Origin: Methanothrix harundinacea
GTDB taxonomy: Archaea > Halobacteriota > Methanosarcinia > Methanotrichales > Methanotrichaceae
DNA: 64,000 nucleotides
Reading direction: 5' to 3'
Assembly: GCA_001509375.1 (NCBI GenBank)
Contig: LGFT01000007.1
Location: 5,122 to 69,121 of the forward strand
Under the pieces are notes generated by a model. The model had not been told where the DNA came from. It made no database searches and saw only the letters and a list, made by a program, of their open reading frames with translations. Below, piece after piece: positions 49,438-60,223 of this stretch (position 1 is its first letter; each line of letters starts with the position of its first letter). The translations under genes and the position numbers were made by a program.

Positions 49438-50322
49438 TCAGAACGAAGATACGTTCTCGTCCTCCGGAAGGTCGGGCAGGTAGACGGGGGCGGCCTTTGC
49501 CTCCTCCGGGAGGGTCACCACGACCGGTTCATGATACCCTCCAAATCTTCTCACCTCCAGGGTATCGAAGCGGATCTCGAGGTTCTCGGGCGATTCGGGC
49601 GGCATCCTCAGGATCCCGGGCCCCGCCACGTAGACGGCTGAGATCCTGCTCTCTGTGGGAAGGCCGGTTTCCTCTGTTACCCAGACGGTCCAGTCCAGCT
49701 CTCTTCCCCTCTCGAAAAGTCCATTCATGTCGATCATCAGGGGGATTCGGGGATCGACGGAGCTTATCTGCCCCAGCATGATCCCGTAGGCGGTGTCGTT
49801 GTCTGGATTGACCTTCAGCCTGACGAACTCTTGGCCGTCTACGTTATCAGAACCCTCTACCACCACCTCGGACCTCTCGATCATCTCCATCAGGTGGGCG
49901 AGCTGGTCGACCTTCTCGATCCCAAACGCTGGGTCGGGCTGAAACAGGCCGATCCACTCGTCACCCATCTTCTGGTAGAGGGTGCTGTTTATGAAGTAGA
50001 CCTCGACGGTATCCTCAGCGGTCCTGTTTCCGGCCAAAGTCGCCCTCGTCGATGTGGAGACCTCCATCGAGCTCTGATCCGTGAGGTTGATCGCCCCCGA
50101 CCACCGGAGGGAGATCACCTCTCCATCCAGGGAGCCATCTCCGTCAAAGTTGCTGAACTCCACCATCTGGTCCATCTCGATCTCGAACCGATAGGATTCC
50201 AGATCACCTGCGGCCTCTGTCATTCTCGCTTCGACCTCACCGCTCGAAATCGGCCTATCTCCGATGCAGCCGGCAAAGGCCGCTGCCGCCAGGGCCAGCA
50301 CCAGCAAGATCCTCTTCGTCAT
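49438..50322 (-). CDS. Putative lipoprotein (LolA/LppX-like fold suspected)
   Basis: A 294-aa ORF with a signal peptide and a lipobox-like FAGC. The mature part is acidic and beta-rich. The family is uncertain. Confidence 0.5.
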   Translation of the reverse strand: MTKRILLVLALAAAAFAGCIGDRPISSGEVEARMTEAAGDLESYRFEIEMDQMVEFSNFDGDGSLDGEVISLRWSGAINLTDQSSMEVSTSTRATLAGNRTAEDTVEVYFINSTLYQKMGDEWIGLFQPDPAFGIEKVDQLAHLMEMIERSEVVVEGSDNVDGQEFVRLKVNPDNDTAYGIMLGQISSVDPRIPLMIDMNGLFERGRELDWTVWVTEETGLPTESRISAVYVAGPGILRMPPESPENLEIRFDTLEVRRFGGYHEPVVVTLPEEAKAAPVYLPDLPEDENVSSF

Positions 50323-51282: not shown

Positions 51283-51422
51283 ATCTCCATCTCTCAGCTG
51301 GTGGATAACTATTTTGCCGTTGATGTTTGGAACTGGTTTAAAGGGGACTGGAGCCGCGGAGGGAAAAAAAGCGGAATTTTATAAGGAGGAGGTGTAATTT
51401 CCTGAGTTTGAGCGAGTATGCG

Positions 51423-52019
51423 TCAGTCGAAAAATGTGCTGTCTGCCGTCCCCGATAGGCTCTGGCCGTCAGAGCCGATGGCCAGGTAGCTTCCCCGGAT
51501 CGATCCCCCTTCGATCTCCAGGTCCAGAACGTAGAGGCGGGATCCGTCCAATGGCACCAGTTTGAGAAACAGCGCGTCGCCAGCAACCGACCCGCTGGCA
51601 CCAACCGCGCTCTTGCCGCCCCTCGCGGTCAGGCTTCCCGCCCCGAAGACGACATCTCCGGATCGGAAAAGGTTGAGGTCGACGTTCCCGGTGACGTCGC
51701 CGAAGAGGGTCAGGTCCACCTGGTCCAGCGCGCCCAATTTGGCCGTCTCCTCTTCCGCGACGCTGGGATCGCCTACGCCGTCTTCACCGGCCTCGTTCAG
51801 CGAATCATCGATCGGAAAATCGTCATCTTCGGCCTCCGCCGTATTCAGGCCCGTCGCACCGTCGTTCGACTTCGGCACGTCGAGATTAAAACCGAGGTCG
51901 CCGGCGCCGAGCCACTCGACGTTATCGACGTAACTTAGCCGAGGGCAAAGCCCATCAGCCGCCCCCAAGATGATAGAGGCCGTCACTACAGAAAGCAACA
52001 ACATACTCAGGTATCTCAT
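51423..52019 (-). CDS. Secreted protein, paralog 1 of an unrecognised 4-member family
   Basis: This is ORF 51423..52232 trimmed to the ATG at 52019, which gives a signal peptide (MRYLSMLLLSVVTASIILGAADG). The shared core is VDLTLF...VVFGAG...YVLDLEI...GSYLAIGSDG. Confidence 0.6.
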   Translation of the reverse strand: MRYLSMLLLSVVTASIILGAADGLCPRLSYVDNVEWLGAGDLGFNLDVPKSNDGATGLNTAEAEDDDFPIDDSLNEAGEDGVGDPSVAEEETAKLGALDQVDLTLFGDVTGNVDLNLFRSGDVVFGAGSLTARGGKSAVGASGSVAGDALFLKLVPLDGSRLYVLDLEIEGGSIRGSYLAIGSDGQSLSGTADSTFFD

Positions 52020-52113
52020 ATATCTCGAAACTCCTCTTGTTCGGGAAATCCAACATTTATAAGAACGTTTTATTCTCACGACTTCAACAAATATTTTTTG
52101 GGTTGTCCTGAGT

Positions 52114-52728
52114 TTAGACAGCTCCAAGCCCCGAACCAAAACCGCTTGCGATGTCCGGAGGGAGCGCCTCCTGGGTCTGAACAGGACCGAGGAACTCCCC
52201 CGAGGAAGCGGTTTTGTATCCGGTGGCGGCACCGGATCCTGTGAGGCCTGACGCCGAATAGGCTGCGTAGCTTCCCTGGATTGGGCTCGTCAAAAGGCTG
52301 AGCCTCAGCCTGATGAGGGCCGGAACGCCGAAGGTGACAACCCGCAAGTCCAACATGTTTGAGGTCGCATACCCCGCCGCTGTGACGGAGTTGCTCCCCC
52401 TCGCCGAATTGATTCTCCCCTCCCCGAAGACCTCGCCTTCGACCTGATAAAGGGCCAGGTCCATCCTTCTCGTCTCGTCGCCTGCCAAGGTGATGGACCA
52501 GATACCGGCGACATCAGCTGAAATTTGGCCGGAAAGGTCGGGCTCGATCCATCCGGTTCCATTCTCCGATAGGTTCATCATGCCGGCGATGTAGCCCTCA
52601 GTATGATGGACGTCGACGATCCGAAGACCTCCGATTCCGAGCCACTCATCTTCAGTCGATCCGTCCGCCTGCGCCGGATACGATGTCGCCAGAAGGAGCG
52701 CAGCGATCAAAACCAGAACGATTTTCAT
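52114..52728 (-). CDS. Secreted protein, paralog 2
   Basis: A 204-aa ORF with a signal peptide (MKIVLVLIAALLLATSYPAQA). The core is GIWSITL...MDLALYQVEGEVFGEG...IRLRLSL...GSYAAYSASG. Confidence 0.65.
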   Translation of the reverse strand: MKIVLVLIAALLLATSYPAQADGSTEDEWLGIGGLRIVDVHHTEGYIAGMMNLSENGTGWIEPDLSGQISADVAGIWSITLAGDETRRMDLALYQVEGEVFGEGRINSARGSNSVTAAGYATSNMLDLRVVTFGVPALIRLRLSLLTSPIQGSYAAYSASGLTGSGAATGYKTASSGEFLGPVQTQEALPPDIASGFGSGLGAV

Positions 52729-52754
52729 CCGATAGACCCCCGATACGATAAGAT

Positions 52755-52785
52755 TTAAAAAAAGGTTGAAGGGATGTATCCCTTC
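52755..52785 (-). terminator. Hairpin plus T7 terminator after paralog 3
   Basis: The minus strand reads GAAGGGATACATCCCTTC (7-bp stem, 52768-52785) followed by AACC and TTTTTTT. It lies immediately after the stop at 52787-52789. Confidence 0.5.
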
Positions 52786-52786
52786 A

Positions 52787-53416
52787 TCAGCTCATGGCGT
52801 TTCCGCCAGATACCCCCATCCCGACACTTACAGTACTCGTAGGCACCGCTGATGCGCTCTGGGTGGTGGCATAGAAGCGGTTTCCATTGCAGTTTCCAGC
52901 CCAGGAGATCCCATCAGAGGAGTAGGCGCTGTAGGTGCCGAAGATGCTGTTTCCGCTGACAGAGGCCTTGAGCCTGTACATGCTGTTTCCGCCGACGGTG
53001 ACCAGACGAAGGGACAGGGCGGATCCTTCAATGAACCCCGCGGCAGTTACCTCCTGGGAGTTGACCCCAGTGGCCATGACTCCCCTTCCGAAGACCTCGT
53101 TTCCGTACTGGTAGAGGGTGAGGTCAACGGTCCTGGAGGCGGAGTCGATGAGACTCAGAGTCCATCTTCCTTCGACGTTCGACCACGGTGTCACCGTCCC
53201 GGAAGCTGGCGTCGAAACGCGGCTTCCGTTATCGGCGCCGGGGCTCATTCCATGGGTCGGGTCGATGTAGAAGAGGGATTCCCCCTTGAAGGCCTCTCCC
53301 ACATCCTCTTTGATACCGCTTCCGGAGAGATCGCTGAGGTAATCTTGAGATGCTGCGGGGAAGGCAAAAGCTGCCAATAAGACCAGCGGCAAAGTCAAAG
53401 CCTTTTGAAATTTCAT
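52787..53416 (-). CDS. Secreted protein, paralog 3
   Basis: A 209-aa ORF with a signal peptide. The core is GRWTLSL...VDLTLYQYGNEVFGRG...YRLKASV...GTYSAYSSDG. Confidence 0.65.
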   Translation of the reverse strand: MKFQKALTLPLVLLAAFAFPAASQDYLSDLSGSGIKEDVGEAFKGESLFYIDPTHGMSPGADNGSRVSTPASGTVTPWSNVEGRWTLSLIDSASRTVDLTLYQYGNEVFGRGVMATGVNSQEVTAAGFIEGSALSLRLVTVGGNSMYRLKASVSGNSIFGTYSAYSSDGISWAGNCNGNRFYATTQSASAVPTSTVSVGMGVSGGNAMS

Positions 53417-53507
53417 TTTATCGCAAACCTCCTTAATCTTCCAAATGAGGATAAATCTGCCGGACCCTTCCGCCCGGCTTTACGATGCTCTTGTACCCCA
53501 CCATCCT

Positions 53508-54200
53508 TCAGCTCTTGCGGGACCCAGTGACGGTTCCATTCCAGGTCGATCCGTCGCTCCCGTAAGCCGAATAGCTCCCTTGGGCGAGATCTCCCGTCAG
53601 GGAGAGATCGAGCCTGTAAAGTGTGATGGTGTCCATGGATACGAGGTCGAGCTTCATCTCATCGCCTGTGACGGTGCCGCTGGCGGCTGCCTGGCTGGCG
53701 GAGCCGAGGGCCGAAGCCGGCTGGTTCAACCAGTCGATCATCGACTCGATTCCTCGATCCTCCGAGGATGCTGAAGCCGTTCCGGTGCCGTCAGACGGGC
53801 CTATAACTCCCTTGCCGAAGATCAGGTCACCCTTCTGGTAGAGGGCCAGGTCCAGGGATCTCATGGTGCTCTCAGCCATCGCAAAGGACCATCTTCCCGA
53901 GAAGTCCGACGGCTCTGTCGTCTCCATATCGGGAGGCTCCGCGGCCGCGCCCGTTCCGCCTATGCTGTAGACCTCCCGGTTGTCGGTCTCATTTGGGATG
54001 GTGGCGATGCCGCCTTCGGTCTTTTCGACGGTCGCATCGTTTTCGCTGGCGCTTCCGACTTTTGAAATATACTCGGAGGTATGGTGCACGTCCGCTATGG
54101 CCATGCTGCCACCGAGCCAGTCGCCATCAGCGGCCTGGGCTACGAAGACAAAAGATGTGAGGACCGCTAGACATAATAGAGCTGACTTAAAGTTGGTCAT
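53508..54200 (-). CDS. Secreted protein, paralog 4
   Basis: A 230-aa ORF with a signal peptide. The core is GRWSFAM...LDLALYQKGDLIFGKG...YRLDLSL...GSYSAYGSDG. Confidence 0.65.
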   Translation of the reverse strand: MTNFKSALLCLAVLTSFVFVAQAADGDWLGGSMAIADVHHTSEYISKVGSASENDATVEKTEGGIATIPNETDNREVYSIGGTGAAAEPPDMETTEPSDFSGRWSFAMAESTMRSLDLALYQKGDLIFGKGVIGPSDGTGTASASSEDRGIESMIDWLNQPASALGSASQAAASGTVTGDEMKLDLVSMDTITLYRLDLSLTGDLAQGSYSAYGSDGSTWNGTVTGSRKS

Positions 54201-54280
54201 TGGATTTTAACCCCCGTTTTGGAAGATGGAGTTTTGGGTATAAAATCGTTTTGTTCTTTTGAAGTAGGGAACCATTTATG

Positions 54281-55444
54281 CTATTCTTCCATCTCGAATA
54301 TGGATGAGTGAGCCTGCCTGAACTTTTCGTCCTTCATCATGCACCCGGCTGGCTTCCCCTTCATCCACCGGTCTCGCCCCATATCTCTCCAGATTTCCTT
54401 GAGGCTTTTCTCCCGGACGTTCCCAAAGGATATCGGCATGTAGGCGCAGGGGAGAACATCGCCCGAGGCTTCGATGTGGAGCCACCTTCTCCCAGCAAAG
54501 CATCCGAACATCTCGGGGCCCAGGAGACGGGGAAAGGCACTTACCCGAGGCCCCTCAGGCAAGCGATTCTTCTCTTCGTGGAATCGACTCAGCCGATCTA
54601 TGTCGCCTTTGCTCAAGACCTCGTCTAGGTGGGTGGACCACCTCCCCACGGCCACGATCTCGTAGAGGGAGAGCTCGTGGACCGAGAGCTCTGCCGCCAA
54701 GTTGTAAGCGTCCTCCAGGTCGTCTATGTTCATGGGGGACGCTACCATGAAGAGGTCTGTCATCAGCCCCCCCGCCAGGGCGTTTTTTATCCCCGAGAGG
54801 GCATCGCTGAAGGCCCCCTCTCTTCCTCGGAAGCGATCGTGCTCTTTTGGGTGAGGGCTGTCGATGCTCACCCTCACAGCATAGAGACCGGCCCGCTTCA
54901 AGGACTGGACCAGCTCCTCGGTAAGGCCGTAGCCGCTGGTGAAGGAGGTGGAGACGGCCCTACCGTCGACTTGAGCCACGAGGTCGGGAAGGTCGCGCCT
55001 GGTCATCGGCTCCCCGCCGTCGAAGGATATGAGGTAAGATCCGAGGTCGAGGCCCTCATCGATCACCCTTTTGATGTCCTCGGAGCTGAGGATCTCCCCC
55101 TTTCGCGACGGTGCGCTGCAGTGGAGGCAGTTGTTGGGACAGGCGCGGATTATGGCGATGGATACCTGGTCAGGGATCCTTCTCCTAGTCAGGGCGGCCA
55201 CCTGAGCTGAGATCATCCGGTCGAAGGCGGGGCTCGGCGCGGGGGGGATCCAGGTGGAGAAGATTATCTGGTCTGGGCCCGACCGGATCGGTTTCTCGCT
55301 CGCAAAGATCTCATTGATCTTTCTTATGGCGGGACCTGCGACCCTAGAGAGGGGGCCGGTCGCCCGGAAGTAAATCTTGCCTCCTTCTGTCTCGGCCTCT
55401 ATCTTCAGCAGCGGTTTTTCAGCGACTTGCATTCTTCTCCCCAC
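54281..55444 (-). CDS. Radical SAM enzyme with SPASM/twitch-type C-terminal domain and ~100-aa N-terminal extension
   Basis: A 387-aa ORF. The CxxxCxxC motif is CPNNCLHC. The auxiliary-cluster signature is CFAGRRWLHIEASGDVLPC (C-x12-G-x4-C), followed by only one more Cys. Confidence 0.8.
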   Translation of the reverse strand: MGRRMQVAEKPLLKIEAETEGGKIYFRATGPLSRVAGPAIRKINEIFASEKPIRSGPDQIIFSTWIPPAPSPAFDRMISAQVAALTRRRIPDQVSIAIIRACPNNCLHCSAPSRKGEILSSEDIKRVIDEGLDLGSYLISFDGGEPMTRRDLPDLVAQVDGRAVSTSFTSGYGLTEELVQSLKRAGLYAVRVSIDSPHPKEHDRFRGREGAFSDALSGIKNALAGGLMTDLFMVASPMNIDDLEDAYNLAAELSVHELSLYEIVAVGRWSTHLDEVLSKGDIDRLSRFHEEKNRLPEGPRVSAFPRLLGPEMFGCFAGRRWLHIEASGDVLPCAYMPISFGNVREKSLKEIWRDMGRDRWMKGKPAGCMMKDEKFRQAHSSIFEMEE

Positions 55445-56262
55445 TTGTCTACGATGCTTCCAAGCCTAGCCTTGATATCTTCATCGCCGCCAGCCTCGGC
55501 GAGAGCCCTCTTTGCGGCACGGCAGTGGTCTCGGATCACCTCGGCACAGAGGCCCAGAGTCGCCTCCATCGAGTGGTCCCGGCTGTAAATGACGGGAAGG
55601 GTCGCGGAAGTCTTCTCCGATGATTTTCCCTTCTCCACCCCCAAAAATTCGTTCAGGTCGTCGGCGACCTGATATGCGAGGCCCAGGTGCATCCCATACC
55701 TCTCGAAGAGGGCGACGTCCTCGTCATCGGCCCCGGCTATCAGGCACCCGATCTTGGAGGAAGCGGATATGAGGGAAGCCGTCTTCTTGCAGATGCAGAG
55801 GTAGTAGTCCTCAGGCCCCTTCCCATTGGCAAGGTCCAGCATCTCCCCTTCGGACATCTCCATGCAGGCCTGGGAAAAGGCCTCGACCACCTTCTGGCTG
55901 TAGCCTGACATGAGGCCGATGGACCTGGATATCAGGTAGTCTCCACAGAGGAGGGCCGCCTCCAGCCCGTATCTGTTAAAAGCGCTGGCTGCGCCCCGCC
56001 GCTCCGTTCCGCAGTCGAGGATGTCGTCGTGGACGAGGGAAGCAGCGTGGACCAGCTCCAAGGCCAGAGCCGCGTCCATCGATTTGGCCGGATCGCAGCC
56101 GAAGGCCTCCGACGAGAGGATGAGGATGAGGGGTCGGACCCTCTTTCCCGGAGAGGCGAGGACGTACTTTATCACCTCCCCCAGGCCCGGGGCCGGCAGC
56201 CTCTCCGTCAGCCTAATAAGCTCCCCGTTGATCAGATGATACTCATCCCAGGCCTCGAACAT
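55405..56262 (-). CDS. Short polyprenyl (trans-isoprenyl) diphosphate synthase-family protein with variant second Asp-rich motif
   Basis: A 285-aa ORF. The first Asp-rich motif is LVHDDILDCGTERRG (DDxxD-x4-RRG). The second reads YQVADDLNE (DDxxE). The 3' end overlaps the radical SAM gene by 40 nt. Confidence 0.75.
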   Translation of the reverse strand: MFEAWDEYHLINGELIRLTERLPAPGLGEVIKYVLASPGKRVRPLILILSSEAFGCDPAKSMDAALALELVHAASLVHDDILDCGTERRGAASAFNRYGLEAALLCGDYLISRSIGLMSGYSQKVVEAFSQACMEMSEGEMLDLANGKGPEDYYLCICKKTASLISASSKIGCLIAGADDEDVALFERYGMHLGLAYQVADDLNEFLGVEKGKSSEKTSATLPVIYSRDHSMEATLGLCAEVIRDHCRAAKRALAEAGGDEDIKARLGSIVDKWGEECKSLKNRC

Positions 56263-56530: not shown

Positions 56531-58063
56531 ATGAAGGCGATTTATGTTCTATCCTCGGCTCTGCTCCTCGTCTTTGGACTGCTGGGGTCGGCCTCCTCGG
56601 CCCGGACCCTGGCCAGCACCTTCGACGAGGGCAACGAGGGATGGGGTTTGGTGGGGGAAGCTGCCCCATCCTGGCAGCGGTTTGGAGGAGATCAGGGGGG
56701 ATTTTTCCAGGTGGAGGGCACCGGTGCCGAAGCTTGGAGCTTTGAATCGCCAAAGTCTTGGTCGGGAGACTGGAGCCGGTACGTCGGAGGGATATTGAGT
56801 TTCGACGAGAGGCTGATGGCGGCTGACGGGCTGAATCCCGGCGAGGAGACCGTGAAGATTGTGACCTCTGACGGCGCAGTTCTCTCCTGGCGGAGCCCAG
56901 AACCGGAAAGGTTTTGGACCCATCGCGAGGTCGTCCTCAACCCCTCCAACTTCGGAACTTTGGAGGCTGAATTTCGTCGGGCCATGAGATCGGTGGCGAA
57001 GATCTCCATCGAGGGGAATGGGTCGGGGAGAAGGTACCTCATCGGCCTAGACAACATCGTCGTCGCGCCCCCCTCGGGCCTTGACCTCACCGCCGATTTC
57101 GACGATGGGGACGGTGGATGGAGGCCCGATGGCGACGTCTCATTTGAATGGAGAAAGACCGGCGGAAACGGCGGCGGGTTTCTTTTGGGCAGAGATCTCG
57201 GCGACGGAAGCACCTGGTACTTCGCCTCGCCGCGGTCCTGGTCGGGGGACTGGACCCCTTACATCGGAGGGGTTTTGAGCTTCGACCTGAAGATGATAGA
57301 TTCCGGGATGGGCAAGCCTTACGAGGCGGAGAAGGTTAAGATCGTCGGGTCGGATGGATCGGTCGTCTCCATCTACCCTTCATCCTCGTCGTATTCGCCG
57401 GCGGGCTCATGGACCAGATGCCAGGTGGCCCTCACCCCCGCCGTCTTCGGCGCGAGAGAGGAGACGTTTTTGAGGGTCATGAGGTCTGTGGACCGGGTCA
57501 TGATCAGGGGAGAGTACTCGGACCGGAGCGACGTCGAGGGGATCGACAACGTGATGGTCATCCTCCCCATCGTTACTGAACTGATCAGCTGTTTCGATCA
57601 CGGAGACGAGGACTGGAGGGGGGGTCGGGACGTCAATCTCTCCTGGAGAGAGGTGGGAGGAGATCCTGGCGGCTTCCTTCTGGGCGAGGATCGGGGGTCT
57701 GGACAGACCTGGTACTACGTCTCGCCTCTCTCTTGGGCCGGGAACTGGACCCCCTACATCGGCGGGACGCTGAGCTTCGAGCTGAAGGTTGTGGATTCGG
57801 GGAACGGCAGCTCCATATTCGGGGACGTGGTCCGGATATGCGGCCGGGACGGCTCTTACCTATCTTGGTCTTGCGACCCGCCCGGAGCGGCGTGGACCCG
57901 CCGTCAGGTCACCCTCGCCCCATCTTCCTTCAAGGAGGTGGGCGGGAGCTTCGATTCCATAATGAAAGACGTCTCAGAGGTCTGGATCCGGGGGGAGTAC
58001 AGCAACATGAGGGACGTGGGGGGCATCGACAACGTGATGGTCACCCTGGGACCCGGGGGGTAG
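56531..58063 (+). CDS. Secreted protein with three laminin-B (laminin domain IV)-like repeats
   Basis: A 510-aa ORF with a signal peptide and three ~160-aa repeats. Each repeat carries FD.G.EGW..., W[YS][FY].SP.SW.G[DN]W..Y[IV]GG.LSF[DE]..., and ...V..[VI].IRGEYS...D..GIDNV.V. Confidence 0.6.
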   Translation: MKAIYVLSSALLLVFGLLGSASSARTLASTFDEGNEGWGLVGEAAPSWQRFGGDQGGFFQVEGTGAEAWSFESPKSWSGDWSRYVGGILSFDERLMAADGLNPGEETVKIVTSDGAVLSWRSPEPERFWTHREVVLNPSNFGTLEAEFRRAMRSVAKISIEGNGSGRRYLIGLDNIVVAPPSGLDLTADFDDGDGGWRPDGDVSFEWRKTGGNGGGFLLGRDLGDGSTWYFASPRSWSGDWTPYIGGVLSFDLKMIDSGMGKPYEAEKVKIVGSDGSVVSIYPSSSSYSPAGSWTRCQVALTPAVFGAREETFLRVMRSVDRVMIRGEYSDRSDVEGIDNVMVILPIVTELISCFDHGDEDWRGGRDVNLSWREVGGDPGGFLLGEDRGSGQTWYYVSPLSWAGNWTPYIGGTLSFELKVVDSGNGSSIFGDVVRICGRDGSYLSWSCDPPGAAWTRRQVTLAPSSFKEVGGSFDSIMKDVSEVWIRGEYSNMRDVGGIDNVMVTLGPGG

Positions 58064-58180: not shown

Positions 58181-60223
58181 ATGAAGAGCATTTTCCGGCG
58201 ATCAGCCCCGGGGCTGATCTACGCAACTTTTGTTTTTTTGATGATGGCGACGGCGGGGTACTCTCAGATGGATCCCAACGAGCCGAACAGCGAGCTTGGA
58301 AACGCCACCCGGATCAGCTTAGGCGGTTCCGTGGCGGGGACTATAGAACCGGCGGGGGACGTGGACTTCTTCGGCTTTGAGATCGCAAGCCCAGGGATCC
58401 TGGAGGTGAAATTGAATTCGGTTCCCGATGAGATGAGGGCAAGGATCGACCTCTATGGCAAGAACTTCAACTTCATCACGAGGAGAGACGCCTCAAACCC
58501 CGGAGACCTGGTGACCCTCACCCTCGATCTGGCGAGCCCGGCCCTGTACTACATCGGGATCGTAGACCTGGCGAGGAAGTCCCACGATGCCGGGTACACC
58601 TTCGATCTCGGCTTTGATCCCCTCGTAGACGTAAACGAGCCGAACGGCGAGGCTGGGGACGCGAAGCCCATCGAGATTGGCAATCTCGTAGAGGGATACA
58701 TCTTCCCGAAGGGGGACTTGGACATATACAAGCTCTATGCAAACGGCTCCGGGATCCTGGAGGTGAAGGCCGAGTCAGTACCGGAGAATATGAGGACAAG
58801 GATCGACCTCTACGGCAAAAACTTCAACTTCATCACCAGGGTCGACGCATCGAACCCCGGAGACCTAGTGACTCTGAAGCACGACGTGGTCAATCATGGA
58901 TGGTATCCGGAATGGTACTACATCGGGATCGTAGACCTCTCGGGAGGCTCCTACAACGTCCCATACGCCTTCAAAGCGGACTTTGAGCCGGTGATCGACG
59001 AGAACGAGCCGAACGGCGAGATCGGGAACGCTGTGGGCATCGACCTCGGCGATCAAATAGAGGGATACATCTTTTCCAAGGGGGACGTAGACTTCTTCAA
59101 GATCGAGGCGCCGAGCCCTGGAATTTTGGAGGTGAAGACGGTATCCGTCCCTGATGAGATGAGGACGAGGATCGACCTCTACGGCAAGAGCTTCAATTTC
59201 ATCACCAGGAAAGACGCCTCAAACCCCGGAGACAAGACGACCCTGAGTTTTGACGTAAAGAACCCGGGGGTATATCACATCGGGATCGTCGACCTGGCGG
59301 GCAACTCCCTTAATGTGCCTTACACATTTGAGACCTCCTTCGAGGGGGTTACAGATGGAAACGAGCCGAACAGCGAGATAGGGGACGCCGCCCCCATCAG
59401 CCCCGGCGAGGCTGTCGGAGGGGTCATCTTCCCGGCGGGGGTGGTGGACTTCTACAAGATATGGGCGGACGGCCCCGGGGACCTGGAGGTGAAGCTCGAA
59501 TCTCTCCCCGAAGATATGAGGGCTAGGATCGACCTCTACGGCAAGAACTTCAACTTCATCACGAGAGCCGACGCCACAAACCCCGGAGACCTGGCGACCC
59601 TCAAATATGAGGCTCCAGGTCCCGGCTGGTATTACATCGGAGTCAGCGACCTGGCGGGCAAGTCCCACAGCATCGGCTACACCTTCCGGGCCGTCGGCGA
59701 GGGGCTTGGGGCGAGCGGTTCCGGTCCGACAGAGGACGGTGTCGACGGGACGAAGGCGGGAGAGGTAAAAGACGTTCCTGATGGTACAGCCGGAGGGACG
59801 ATGGCGTCGTATCAAGAGGCTACCATCACCCATTCGGGATTTGATTTCTCCGAGGGCGCCACCGGCGAATACCCCACCTTTGATGGGGAGATAATAGAGT
59901 GGCAGCCCAGCGCCGAGGATCACCCCGATTATCCTCGGGATAGCGGGTACCTCTGGTGGAGGAACACTCATCTGGACAATGTGAACTTCTCGAGCCAGAC
60001 CAAGGATATGGGCGCGGTCGATATCGCTACAGTGCGAAATGTTCCTGCAGAATGGGACAGATCACCCCTGATACCACCACTTCTGTTGGGGCATACGGTC
60101 GTCGCCAAGTGCCATGACGGATACGTCAAGTTCCATGTGATATCGGTGGACTCTAACAACTGGTCTGCTGTGGTCAGGTATTCCTACTCCCCTGATGCCG
60201 TCTTCGACGACCTCGCAAGCTGA
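58181..60223 (+). CDS. Secreted protein with four PPC (pre-peptidase C-terminal)-like repeats plus an unrecognised ~170-aa C-terminal domain
   Basis: A 680-aa ORF with a signal peptide. Four ~120-aa repeats carry NEPN.E.G.A..I..G..v.G.I...GDVDF[FY]K..., G.LEVK, RIDLYGKNFNFITR.DASNPGD and YYIGIVDL. Confidence 0.65.
   Translation: MKSIFRRSAPGLIYATFVFLMMATAGYSQMDPNEPNSELGNATRISLGGSVAGTIEPAGDVDFFGFEIASPGILEVKLNSVPDEMRARIDLYGKNFNFITRRDASNPGDLVTLTLDLASPALYYIGIVDLARKSHDAGYTFDLGFDPLVDVNEPNGEAGDAKPIEIGNLVEGYIFPKGDLDIYKLYANGSGILEVKAESVPENMRTRIDLYGKNFNFITRVDASNPGDLVTLKHDVVNHGWYPEWYYIGIVDLSGGSYNVPYAFKADFEPVIDENEPNGEIGNAVGIDLGDQIEGYIFSKGDVDFFKIEAPSPGILEVKTVSVPDEMRTRIDLYGKSFNFITRKDASNPGDKTTLSFDVKNPGVYHIGIVDLAGNSLNVPYTFETSFEGVTDGNEPNSEIGDAAPISPGEAVGGVIFPAGVVDFYKIWADGPGDLEVKLESLPEDMRARIDLYGKNFNFITRADATNPGDLATLKYEAPGPGWYYIGVSDLAGKSHSIGYTFRAVGEGLGASGSGPTEDGVDGTKAGEVKDVPDGTAGGTMASYQEATITHSGFDFSEGATGEYPTFDGEIIEWQPSAEDHPDYPRDSGYLWWRNTHLDNVNFSSQTKDMGAVDIATVRNVPAEWDRSPLIPPLLLGHTVVAKCHDGYVKFHVISVDSNNWSAVVRYSYSPDAVFDDLAS
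58271..59700 (+). repeat. In-frame coding tandem repeat (4 units, 357-369 nt period)
   Basis: The near-identical core AGGATCGACCTCTA[TC]GGCAA[GA]A[AG]CTTCAA[CT]TTCATCAC starts at 58442, 58799, 59168 and 59525. Confidence 0.9.

What the first reader, a model, noticed from the sequence alone, without database searches (positions are those of the whole stretch)
51423..54200. Tandem array of four divergent paralogous secreted proteins of an unrecognised family
Four consecutive minus-strand genes each encode a ~200-230-aa protein with its own signal peptide. They share a conserved ~100-aa beta-rich core that I cannot place in any named family. The core has four parts:
- G[IR]W[ST]... (paralogs 2-4 only)
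- [VML]DL[TA]L[YF](Q)
- [VI]FG.G
- Y.L.L followed by G[ST]Y.A[YI].[SA][DS]G
The N-terminal linkers differ completely between copies (acidic, Ser/Thr-rich or Gly-rich). Each gene appears to have its own TATA-like element, and at least one has its own hairpin plus T7 terminator. That pattern suggests an old, diversifying duplication rather than a recent one. Diversified arrays of small secreted proteins often reflect surface or interaction functions such as adhesion, cell-cell recognition or sheath/matrix components.
Basis: seen in the sequence. Interest (0 to 1): 0.72.

Follow-up and report, generated by a model that had tools for sequence, protein, structure and literature searches.

The report
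Four secreted beta-barrel paralogs, Methanothrix-specific
Four neighbouring genes encode exported proteins that each end in a small eight-stranded beta-barrel; they belong to an unnamed protein family seen so far only in the sheathed methanogens Methanothrix/Methanocrinis, and its function is unknown.

Summary
Four minus-strand genes encode 230-, 209-, 204- and 198-aa proteins: W4 53508-54200, W3 52787-53416, W2 52114-52728, W1 51423-52019. Each has a Sec-type signal peptide, then a 50-75-aa acidic, Ser/Thr- and Gly-rich segment that AlphaFold2 leaves unmodelled, then a C-terminal core of about 100 aa.

- **Paralogy:** pairwise BLASTP E-values run from 3e-10 to 1e-20.
- **Selection:** all four are under purifying selection (dN/dS 0.2-0.5).
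- **Age:** the array W4-W3-W2-W1 has one-to-one orthologs, in the same order and the same flanks, in 12 of 14 Methanocrinis/M. harundinacea-clade species. The quadruplication is therefore old and fixed.
- **Fold:** AlphaFold2 models the core of W3 and W2 with pLDDT above 93 as an eight-stranded up-and-down beta-barrel. Foldseek finds only fold-level resemblance to avidins, lipocalins, fatty-acid-binding proteins and a designed barrel (9-17% identity).
- **Family:** Pfam, NCBIfam and PDB sequence searches find nothing. A profile search finds about 450 cluster representatives. Every one that carries an organism name is Methanothrix, Methanosaeta, Methanocrinis or an unclassified relative. Other genomes carry arrays of two or five copies.

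This is a lineage-specific, unnamed sequence family with a known fold. Function is inferred only: the proteins are probably extracytoplasmic binding or docking modules in the cell envelope. I found no expression data.

The parts
53508..54200 (-). W4: 230-aa secreted paralog. It has a signal peptide, an N-terminal DWLGGSMAIADVHHTSEYI motif and a linker. Its beta-barrel carries a conserved insertion of about 30 aa (SSEDRGIESMIDWLNQP...).
   Evidence: ORF. Family HMM E = 7e-49. Orthologs in 14 species. dN/dS 0.24-0.37.
52787..53416 (-). W3: 209-aa secreted paralog. It has a signal peptide, the IKEDVGEAFKGESLFYIDPTHGMSPG motif, an eight-stranded barrel at residues 83-180, Cys176, and a disordered Gly/Ser tail.
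   Evidence: AlphaFold2 pLDDT above 93 over residues about 80-181. Foldseek matches. An identical protein is present on 180 public contigs (P0002). dN/dS 0.19-0.28.
52114..52728 (-). W2: 204-aa secreted paralog. It has a signal peptide, the strongly conserved EDEWLGIGGLRIVDVHHTEGYIAGMMNLSENGTGW segment, a barrel at residues about 72-175, and a disordered tail.
   Evidence: AlphaFold2. Identical to P0001. The N-terminal segment has dN/dS of about 0.1, against 0.26-0.40 for the barrel.
51423..52019 (-). W1: 198-aa secreted paralog and the most divergent copy. It lacks GxW. It has an invariant Cys25 just after the signal peptide (GLCPRL), a VEWLGAGDLGF motif, a very acidic linker and the barrel.
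   Evidence: Start codon chosen by ortholog alignment. dN/dS 0.38-0.53.
54236..54256 (-). BRE/TATA-like promoter element GAACAAAACGATTTTATACCC, about 40 nt upstream of the W4 start codon.
   Evidence: Its core is identical in most of the 11 species aligned, with single substitutions in two. Function is inferred from the archaeal BRE/TATA consensus.
53459..53478 (-). GC-rich hairpin (GCCGG...CCGGC) between W4 and W3, followed by a conserved AAGGAGG ribosome-binding site.
   Evidence: A hairpin-forming GC-rich sequence lies at the same place in 13 species. RNAalifold finds only three invariant pairs and no covariation. Its role is unknown.
52757..52786 (-). Terminator-like hairpin (8-bp stem) plus T7, directly after the W3 stop codon.
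   Evidence: Energy -11.3 kcal/mol, z = -3.7, no shuffle of 200 as stable. A stem followed by a T4-T7 run lies at the same place in most other species. Formal covariation support is weak.
52081..52102 (-). Conserved box CCAAAAAATATTTGTTGAAGT between W2 and W1. It is a candidate promoter for W1. The window's own CTTATAAAT lies at 52055-52063.
   Evidence: Conserved in 10 of 13 species. The promoter role is inferred.
51364..51370 (-). T7 run 53 nt after the W1 stop codon. It is a likely archaeal oligo-T terminator at the end of the array.
   Evidence: Read from the sequence. The role is inferred.

Best explanation
Shown. The locus is a fixed cassette of four anciently duplicated genes. Each product has three parts. 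The first is a Sec-type signal peptide. The second is a flexible acidic, Ser/Thr- and Gly-rich segment of 50-75 aa that carries a short, paralog-specific conserved motif near the mature N-terminus. The third is a C-terminal soluble beta-barrel of about 100 aa: eight antiparallel strands in strict meander order. One face of each strand is hydrophobic, and the family conserves a Trp (strand 1), a Gln, Phe-Gly-x-Gly, a Tyr and several Gly. The barrel has the avidin/lipocalin (calycin-like) topology but no detectable sequence relationship to those families. The family has about 450 clusters at 50% identity. Wherever an organism is named, it is a member of Methanotrichaceae or an unclassified relative. 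Other genomes carry tandem arrays of two or five copies, or single copies.

Inferred. The proteins are exported to the space between the cytoplasmic membrane and the proteinaceous sheath, or to the surface. There the barrel acts as a small binding module, for a hydrophobic or aromatic small molecule or for a partner peptide. The conserved N-terminal motif, disordered on its own, docks the protein onto an envelope partner or onto another paralog. All four orthologous groups have been kept side by side since the common ancestor of the Methanocrinis clade. Each therefore probably has a non-redundant role, either a different ligand or partner or a different subunit of one hetero-oligomer.
For: - Genes and paralogy.
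- Real coding genes: dN/dS is 0.19-0.53 in all four, and public gene calls agree.
- Fold: AlphaFold2 gives pLDDT above 93 for eight strands in both W3 and W2. Foldseek target-normalised TM-scores reach 0.69-0.71 against bradavidin 2 and a designed eight-stranded barrel. Wilavidin, shwanavidin, avidin, fatty-acid-binding proteins, lipocalins, nitrophorin and the Cap15 barrel also match, all at 9-17% identity.
- Soluble barrel: hydrophobic and polar positions alternate strictly along every strand.
- Export: 302 of 332 members have an N-terminal hydrophobic stretch, and the barrel always sits at the C-terminal end.
- Conserved N-terminal motifs: the W2 N-terminal segment has dN/dS of about 0.1, lower than its barrel, yet AlphaFold2 gives it pLDDT of about 40 in the monomer. 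That pattern fits a motif that folds only on a partner.
- Fixed cassette: the order W4-W3-W2-W1 and the flanks are the same in 12 of 14 species.
- Distribution.
Against: - No ligand, partner, localisation or expression datum exists; the attempts found nothing.
- The inward-facing positions are mostly Leu, Val and Ala. The barrel may therefore be fully packed, with no cavity, which would favour a structural role over ligand binding.
- Model coordinates could not be inspected for a pocket.
- Signal peptides were judged by eye and by hydropathy only.
- The taxonomic restriction rests on the minority of hits that carry an organism name.
- Arrays of two or five copies and single copies in other genomes argue against an obligatory four-subunit complex.
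Confidence: 0.5

Rival explanations
1. The proteins are structural accessory components of the Methanothrix envelope, for example the matrix between cell and sheath, the spacer plug, or links between sheath hoops. They would assemble with each other or with the sheath-forming (SH) proteins, partly through disulfide bonds, rather than binding a small ligand.
For: - The family is seen only in Methanotrichaceae, which are sheathed filaments.
- Plug and assembly factors of the sheath are still unidentified (PMC11576556).
- W1 has one invariant Cys right after the signal peptide, and W3 has a nearly invariant Cys176. Disulfides are reported to matter for sheath integrity.
- The barrel interior looks packed with aliphatic residues.
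- Four paralogs are co-retained.
Against: - The fold is an eight-stranded closed barrel. SH proteins have a two-sheet, six-plus-six-strand amyloid-like core.
- No named homolog comes from the other sheathed lineages (Methanospirillum, ANME-1).
- W2 and W4 have no Cys in the mature protein.
- No viral copies were found, whereas SH-like proteins do occur in viruses.
- There is no direct evidence of any kind.
Confidence: 0.25
2. The proteins are true but very divergent avidin or lipocalin homologs that sequester a vitamin or cofactor such as biotin or a corrinoid outside the cell.
For: The best Foldseek matches are avidin-family proteins and lipocalins or fatty-acid-binding proteins. A GxW motif sits in the first strand, as in calycins.
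Against:
- There is no Pfam Avidin or Lipocalin hit even at E up to 10.
- Only strand 1 has a Trp conserved above 90%, and a second Trp is present in 57% of members. Avidins use several Trp to bind biotin (established knowledge).
- There is no C-terminal helix as in lipocalins.
- Foldseek E-values are only 4e-4 to 1e-2.
Confidence: 0.07
3. The proteins are protease inhibitors of the calycin kind, built like the serralysin inhibitors: a barrel plus an N-terminal segment that plugs a protease active site. They would protect the envelope from secreted or foreign proteases.
For: The architecture, a small eight-stranded barrel with a conserved motif close to the mature N-terminus, resembles that class (from memory; a lead only). 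Large secreted proteins with PPC (pre-peptidase C-terminal) repeats are encoded nearby.
Against: No metalloprotease-inhibitor structure appears among the top 50 Foldseek matches. There is no Pfam inhibitor hit. The motif is separated from the barrel by a long disordered linker, unlike those inhibitors. No partner protease gene is conserved next to the arrays in other genomes.
Confidence: 0.04
4. The ORFs are not real genes, or the similarity among them is a compositional artefact.
For: None beyond the low-complexity nature of the linkers.
Against: dN/dS is well below 1. One-to-one orthologs exist in 12-14 species. About 450 family clusters exist. AlphaFold2 models the core confidently. Promoter and ribosome-binding-site elements are conserved.
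Confidence: 0.01

Closest known systems
Avidin/streptavidin family (bradavidin 2, wilavidin, shwanavidin, avidin; PDB 4ggr, 4ggt, 7our, 3szh, 5hlm)
   Same: A secreted domain of about 100-120 aa forming an eight-stranded up-and-down beta-barrel. G-x-W sits in the first strand. Target-normalised TM-score 0.6-0.71.
   Different: Identity is 9-14%. There is no Pfam Avidin hit. hhalign probability against streptavidin is 0.1%. The biotin-binding Trp set is absent. This family has a long disordered N-terminal segment with its own conserved motifs. It is restricted to Methanotrichaceae.
Lipocalins, fatty-acid-binding proteins and nitrophorins (calycin superfamily)
   Same: An up-and-down barrel with a GxW signature at strand 1. 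The proteins are extracytoplasmic and small.
   Different: Lipocalins have an N-terminal 3-10 helix and a C-terminal alpha-helix, and fatty-acid-binding proteins have ten strands plus a helix-turn-helix lid. None of these is predicted here. TM-scores are only 0.35-0.41. There is no sequence-family hit.
Archaeal sheath-forming (SH) proteins of Methanothrix and Methanospirillum (Medvedeva et al. 2024, PMC11576556)
   Same: Secreted, beta-rich proteins found in the same organisms. They are encoded in tandem clusters of paralogs with variable appended regions.
   Different: The SH core is two beta-sheets of six antiparallel strands that polymerise into rings. Here the core is a closed eight-stranded barrel of 100 aa. 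SH proteins also occur in Methanomicrobiales, ANME-1, Thermofilales and viruses. This family was found in none of these by name, and not in viral contigs.
De novo designed eight-stranded beta-barrel (PDB 8ah9) and the Cap15 cyclic-dinucleotide-receptor barrel (PDB 7n34)
   Same: These are among the best geometric matches (8ah9: E = 3.7e-4, target-normalised TM-score 0.69). They show that the core is a minimal, idealised barrel with Gly at strand kinks.
   Different: There is no evolutionary or functional relationship. Cap15 is a cytoplasmic, membrane-anchored defence effector.

Membership tests
Avidin/streptavidin family (Pfam PF01382) | Sequence match to the family profile | tested here: not met
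   No Pfam hit at E up to 10 for the four proteins, nor at E up to 0.01 for 145 diverse members. hhalign against streptavidin gives probability 0.1%.
Avidin/streptavidin family (Pfam PF01382) | Eight-stranded antiparallel up-and-down beta-barrel of about 110-125 aa | tested here: met
   AlphaFold2 predicts eight meander strands with pLDDT above 93. Foldseek target-normalised TM-scores against avidins are 0.57-0.71.
Avidin/streptavidin family (Pfam PF01382) | Biotin-binding residues, including several conserved Trp in strands and loops | tested here: not met
   Only W85 is conserved above 90%. W172 is present in 57% of members. No other Trp is conserved. The comparison with avidin residues rests on established knowledge.
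Lipocalin (calycin) family | GxW motif in the first strand | tested here: met
   G83 is present in 94% and W85 in 95% of 145 members. The motif is absent in the W1 orthologous group.
Lipocalin (calycin) family | C-terminal alpha-helix packed on the barrel, and a match to a Lipocalin profile | tested here: not met
   No helix follows the barrel in either model. There is no Pfam Lipocalin hit.
Archaeal sheath SH proteins (PMC11576556) | Core of two beta-sheets, each of six antiparallel strands, able to form continuous cross-beta rings | tested here: not met
   The core has eight strands and matches closed barrels. Ring formation was not modelled.
Archaeal sheath SH proteins (PMC11576556) | Match to the published SH HMM profiles, or listing in the paper's tables | not tested
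   The SH profiles and accession lists were not available to the tools used.
Sec-exported archaeal proteins | N-terminal signal peptide with basic, hydrophobic and AxA-type cleavage regions | tested here: met
   Sequence inspection and hydropathy. 302 of 332 family members have the hydrophobic stretch. No dedicated predictor was run.
Lipoproteins (a source's name for W3 begins 'Lipopr...') | Lipobox with an invariant Cys at the cleavage site | tested here: not met
   W2, W3 and W4 have no Cys near the end of the signal peptide. W1 has Cys25, but it is preceded by (E/D)G(L/A/G), which is not a canonical lipobox. The neighbouring 294-aa protein does have one (FAGC).

The most novel reading that the evidence does not exclude
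These barrels are the missing non-SH components of the Methanothrix envelope. They would form a lineage-specific set of tethered beta-barrel subunits that assemble through their conserved N-terminal [DE]WLG...DVHHT motifs and the single Cys in W1 and W3. The assembly would build or organise the spacer plug or the matrix between cell and sheath. The fixed four-gene cassette would encode one heteromeric assembly.
Probability: 0.12. Interest if true: 0.7.

Novelty: new variant of a known kind. Interest (0 to 1): 0.4.

Why it matters
Methanothrix and Methanocrinis are among the most important acetate-consuming methane producers in digesters, wetlands and rice paddies. Their filament envelope (sheath, plugs and the space beneath) is only partly understood at the protein level. 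The sheath's plug and assembly factors are still unknown (PMC11576556).

A secreted protein family that is specific to this lineage, is expanded into tandem arrays, and is kept as a fixed four-gene set over long evolutionary time is a reasonable candidate for an envelope-specific function. It also gives a clean new sequence family for a minimal eight-stranded barrel, suitable for a Pfam entry.

Without expression, localisation or binding data it remains one of many lineage-specific families of unknown function.

Tried and rejected
1. Pfam, NCBIfam and PDB sequence searches with the single proteins, the 69-sequence profile and the 145-sequence profile found nothing significant.
2. hhalign against streptavidin gave no relationship.
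3. Foldseek against the viral structure library gave only generic small barrels, including one 'Avidin family protein' of a pithovirus.
4. Scans of viral contigs with two subfamily alignments found no relatives.
5. The search for related loci with the whole-family alignment failed because no stretch was conserved enough. It was repeated with the W3 orthologous group.
6. A word-indexed search with the 145-sequence alignment mostly re-found W3 orthologs.
7. I looked for expression data in the literature. The M. harundinacea DIET paper has no held supplement and does not mention these genes. I tried to map a single-copy member (L022) onto M. thermoacetophila PT locus tags through its neighbour, myo-inositol-1-phosphate synthase (Mthe_0276). 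That failed because the neighbouring genes differ. One literature search was uninformative.
8. A functional link to the adjacent radical SAM/SPASM gene was considered and rejected. Arrays in other genomes lie in unrelated contexts. That gene overlaps a geranylfarnesyl-diphosphate-synthase-like gene, which suggests lipid or methanophenazine chemistry instead.
9. Covariation support for the two intergenic hairpins was sought with RNAalifold and was weak.
10. Class III (pilin-type) signal peptides were considered and rejected by inspection, because the signal peptides end in AxA-type sites.
Full report
**1. The observation**

The ORF list for 49.5-56.5 kb shows four consecutive minus-strand ORFs. 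I name them by position in the direction of transcription:
- W4, 53508-54200, 230 aa
- W3, 52787-53416, 209 aa
- W2, 52114-52728, 204 aa
- W1, 51423-52019, 198 aa

The mechanical list extends W1 to a GTG at 52232 (269 aa), which overlaps W2. Alignment with orthologs shows the real start is the ATG at 52019, giving MRYLSM.... Public gene calls on six contigs that carry an identical W3 give the same four genes.

The weakest pair, W1/W2, has E = 3e-10, and W3/W4 has E = 1e-20. The paralogy is therefore real.

Each protein begins with a basic N-terminus, a strongly hydrophobic stretch and an AxA-like site. The segment that follows is rich in Asp/Glu (16-26%), Ser/Thr (10-22%) and Gly (12-16%).

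**2. Are they real genes?**

Using orthologs from other species (see section 4), Nei-Gojobori dN/dS against six species is:

| Gene | dN/dS |
|---|---|
| W1 | 0.38-0.53 |
| W2 | 0.22-0.38 |
| W3 | 0.19-0.28 |
| W4 | 0.24-0.37 |

All four are under purifying selection. In W2 the N-terminal segment is more constrained (about 0.1) than the barrel (0.26-0.40).

**3. Structure**

AlphaFold2 with a 69-sequence family alignment models W3 residues about 80-181 at pLDDT 93-97. The model has eight beta-strands in strict meander order (83-90, 94-104, 107-116, 119-130, 133-140, 145-154, 157-166, 171-180). The N-terminal 80 residues and the C-terminal tail have low confidence. An independent run for W2 gives the same eight strands over residues about 72-175.

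Foldseek against the PDB returns the following for W3:
- a designed eight-stranded barrel (8ah9; E = 3.7e-4, target-normalised TM-score 0.69)
- bradavidin 2 (0.69-0.71)
- wilavidin, shwanavidin and avidin
- the Cap15 barrel
- fatty-acid-binding proteins and lipocalins

All are at 9-17% identity. For W2 the matches are weaker but of the same kind: nitrophorin, avidins, lipocalins, Cap15 and a domain of quinohemoprotein amine dehydrogenase. The viral structure library gives the same picture.

Column statistics over 145 diverse members show strict alternation of hydrophobic and polar positions along each strand. That means a soluble barrel with a hydrophobic interior. The conserved positions are G83, W85, L89, L99, L101, Q103, F109, G110, G112, G127, L136, Y147, G160, Y162, G174 and G178.

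The core is therefore a small calycin/avidin-like up-and-down barrel. The resemblance is one of fold, not of family. Pfam and NCBIfam give no family above threshold, even for 145 members. PDB sequence searches give nothing below E = 0.06.

**4. Distribution and evolution**

A word-indexed search with the four-paralog profile found 67 proteins, all named 'hypothetical' or unnamed. Every organism name was Methanothrix, Methanosaeta, Methanocrinis or Methanotrichaceae. W2 and W3 are identical to proteins of a Methanothrix sp. metagenome-assembled genome and occur on about 175-180 public contigs.

An exhaustive HMMER search of 1.84 billion cluster representatives found 450 representatives at E <= 1e-3 and 315 at E <= 1e-10. 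Most are 160-300 aa. Of 332 collected members, 302 have an N-terminal hydrophobic stretch, and the barrel is always at the C-terminal end. Further name look-ups again gave only Methanosaeta or Methanothrix, 'Methanosarcinales archaeon' or 'uncultured archaeon'.

A scan of one genome per GTDB species with the W3 orthologous group found 14 species, all in the Methanocrinis/M. harundinacea clade. An HMM scan and flank comparison gave these results:
- In 12 of 14 species the same four orthologous groups lie in the same order, W4-W3-W2-W1. They sit between a radical SAM/SPASM gene (with an overlapping polyprenyl synthase) and purC.
- In two loci only three copies were detected.
- The flanking proteins are 80-90% identical to the window's.
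- The four family proteins are less conserved: W1 46-71%, W2 52-75%, W3 57-83%, W4 53-75%.

The quadruplication therefore predates the clade, and each copy has been retained. The proteins evolve faster than housekeeping neighbours but under constraint.

In lower-GC Methanothrix-type genomes the family occurs in unrelated contexts. It appears as an array of two (L024, on a 3.0-Mb contig), an array of five (L025) and single copies (L021, L022). No relative was found in viral contigs.

**5.

The N-terminal regions are not entirely different. Near the mature N-terminus, W1, W2 and W4 share [DE]WLGxG..(L/M)xIxDV(HH)T(E)(G)Y. In W2 this is the best-conserved part of the protein. W3 orthologs share I(K/R)EDVxEAFKGESLFYIDPxTGMSPG. 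AlphaFold2 does not place these motifs in the monomer (pLDDT about 40). That is the behaviour expected of short motifs that fold on a partner.

Other details:
- W1 orthologs have an invariant Cys directly after the signal peptide.
- W3 orthologs have a Cys in the last strand in 13 of 15 sequences.
- W2 and W4 have no Cys in the mature protein.
- W4 carries a conserved insertion of about 30 aa in a barrel loop, and it contains another DWL.
- N-glycosylation sequons are modestly enriched across the family: 1.5 per 100 aa against 1.1 expected.

**6. Regulatory signals**

| Position | Element | Conservation |
|---|---|---|
| 54236-54256, upstream of W4 | GAACAAAACGATTTTATACCC, about 40 nt before the start codon; looks like an archaeal BRE/TATA promoter | Core identical in most of 11 species aligned, single substitutions in two |
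| 53459-53478, between W4 and W3 | GC-rich hairpin, followed by an AAGGAGG ribosome-binding site | Same place in 13 species; only three invariant pairs, no covariation |
| 52757-52786, after W3 | 8-bp hairpin plus T7; -11.3 kcal/mol, z = -3.7 | A stem followed by an oligo-T run at the same position in most other species; formal covariation weak |
| 52081-52102, between W2 and W1 | CCAAAAGGTATTTGTTGAAGT box (CCAAAAAATATTTGTTGAAGT in the window) | 10 of 13 species |
| 51364-51370, after W1 | T7 run | Window only |

A reasonable reading is that W4 and W3 form one transcription unit and that W2 and W1 have their own starts. This is inference only.

**7. What it most likely is and does**

Shown: this is a lineage-specific family of Sec-exported proteins. 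Each consists of a flexible, motif-bearing tether and a C-terminal soluble eight-stranded barrel. In this clade the family is present as a fixed four-paralog cassette.

Inferred: the proteins act outside the membrane, in the space beneath the sheath or on the surface. The barrel would be a binding module, and the N-terminal motif would dock it to a partner. The four copies would have non-redundant specificities or would form a heteromer.

I put about 0.5 on this overall statement. The structural and evolutionary part is much more certain than the functional part.

The main rival (0.25) is a purely structural role in the envelope, such as matrix, plug or hoop connection. It is favoured by the lineage restriction, the packed aliphatic interior and the conserved single Cys residues. 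It lacks any direct evidence, and the fold is unlike that of the sheath-forming SH proteins described by Medvedeva et al. 2024. True avidin or lipocalin homology, a protease-inhibitor role and artefact are unlikely for the reasons given in the rival list.

**8. Comparison with known families, and novelty**

The proteins resemble a minimal avidin/calycin barrel in shape. They fail the sequence-level and residue-level tests for membership of the avidin or lipocalin families, and they fail the fold test for SH proteins. No curated family covers them.

I therefore classify them as a new variant of a known kind: an unnamed sequence family with a known fold and an unusual tether-plus-barrel architecture. 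They are not categorically new.

Interest is moderate (0.4). The finding is solid, and the organisms matter. But lineage-specific secreted families of unknown function are common, and nothing yet points to a surprising mechanism.

**9. Limits**

- No expression, localisation or binding data were found.
- Model coordinates could not be examined for a pocket.
- Signal peptides were not run through a dedicated predictor.
- The taxonomic restriction rests on the named minority of hits.

Noticed in passing
window 56531-58063 (+) and 58181-60223 (+): Two large secreted proteins are encoded divergently from the cassette side. One is a 510-aa protein made of three internal repeats with a Laminin_B-like match (E = 2.5e-12). 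The other is a 680-aa protein with four PPC (pre-peptidase C-terminal) repeats and a distinct C-terminal domain. Both keep their position in the other Methanocrinis-clade loci (66-74% and about 55-85% identity).
   Followed up: partly
window 54281-55444 (-) and 55405-56262 (-): A radical SAM/SPASM protein scores below the cut-off of every named NCBIfam family; its best partial match is to AhbD heme b synthase (133 bits against a cut-off of 500). It overlaps by 40 nt a polyprenyl synthase most similar to methanogen geranylfarnesyl diphosphate synthase. The pair is conserved directly upstream of the cassette. It may belong to methanophenazine or lipid chemistry rather than to the secreted proteins.
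   Followed up: partly
window 49438-50322 (-): A 294-aa protein with a canonical lipobox (LALAAAAFAGC) and a weak DUF6612 match lies downstream of purC. It is conserved in position in the related loci (67-79% identity).
   Followed up: no
window 53459-53478 and 52757-52786 (-): GC-rich hairpins lie in the W4-W3 and W3-W2 spacers. They recur at the same positions in about 13 species although their sequences differ. Only the second is followed by an oligo-T run. RNAalifold on MAFFT alignments gave little covariation support, possibly because the stems shift register between species.
   Followed up: partly
window 51423-52232 (-): The mechanical ORF for W1 extends 71 codons upstream to a GTG and overlaps the end of W2. 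This extension is not conserved in the orthologs and should not be annotated.
   Followed up: yes
L025 8547-12521 (contig_5460 of ERZ25039519, GC 46%) and L024 9291-10720 (3.0-Mb contig, GC 50%): Other Methanothrix-type genomes carry tandem arrays of five and two family members in unrelated neighbourhoods: next to glycogen or starch enzymes and SRP54, and next to mutS. Tandem expansion therefore recurs in this family and is not peculiar to the window.
   Followed up: partly
W4 protein, residues about 136-170 (window about 53690-53795, -): W4 orthologs carry a conserved insertion of about 30 aa in a barrel loop (SSEDRGIESMIDWLNQPxS). It repeats the DWL tripeptide of the N-terminal motif. Its meaning is unknown.
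   Followed up: no
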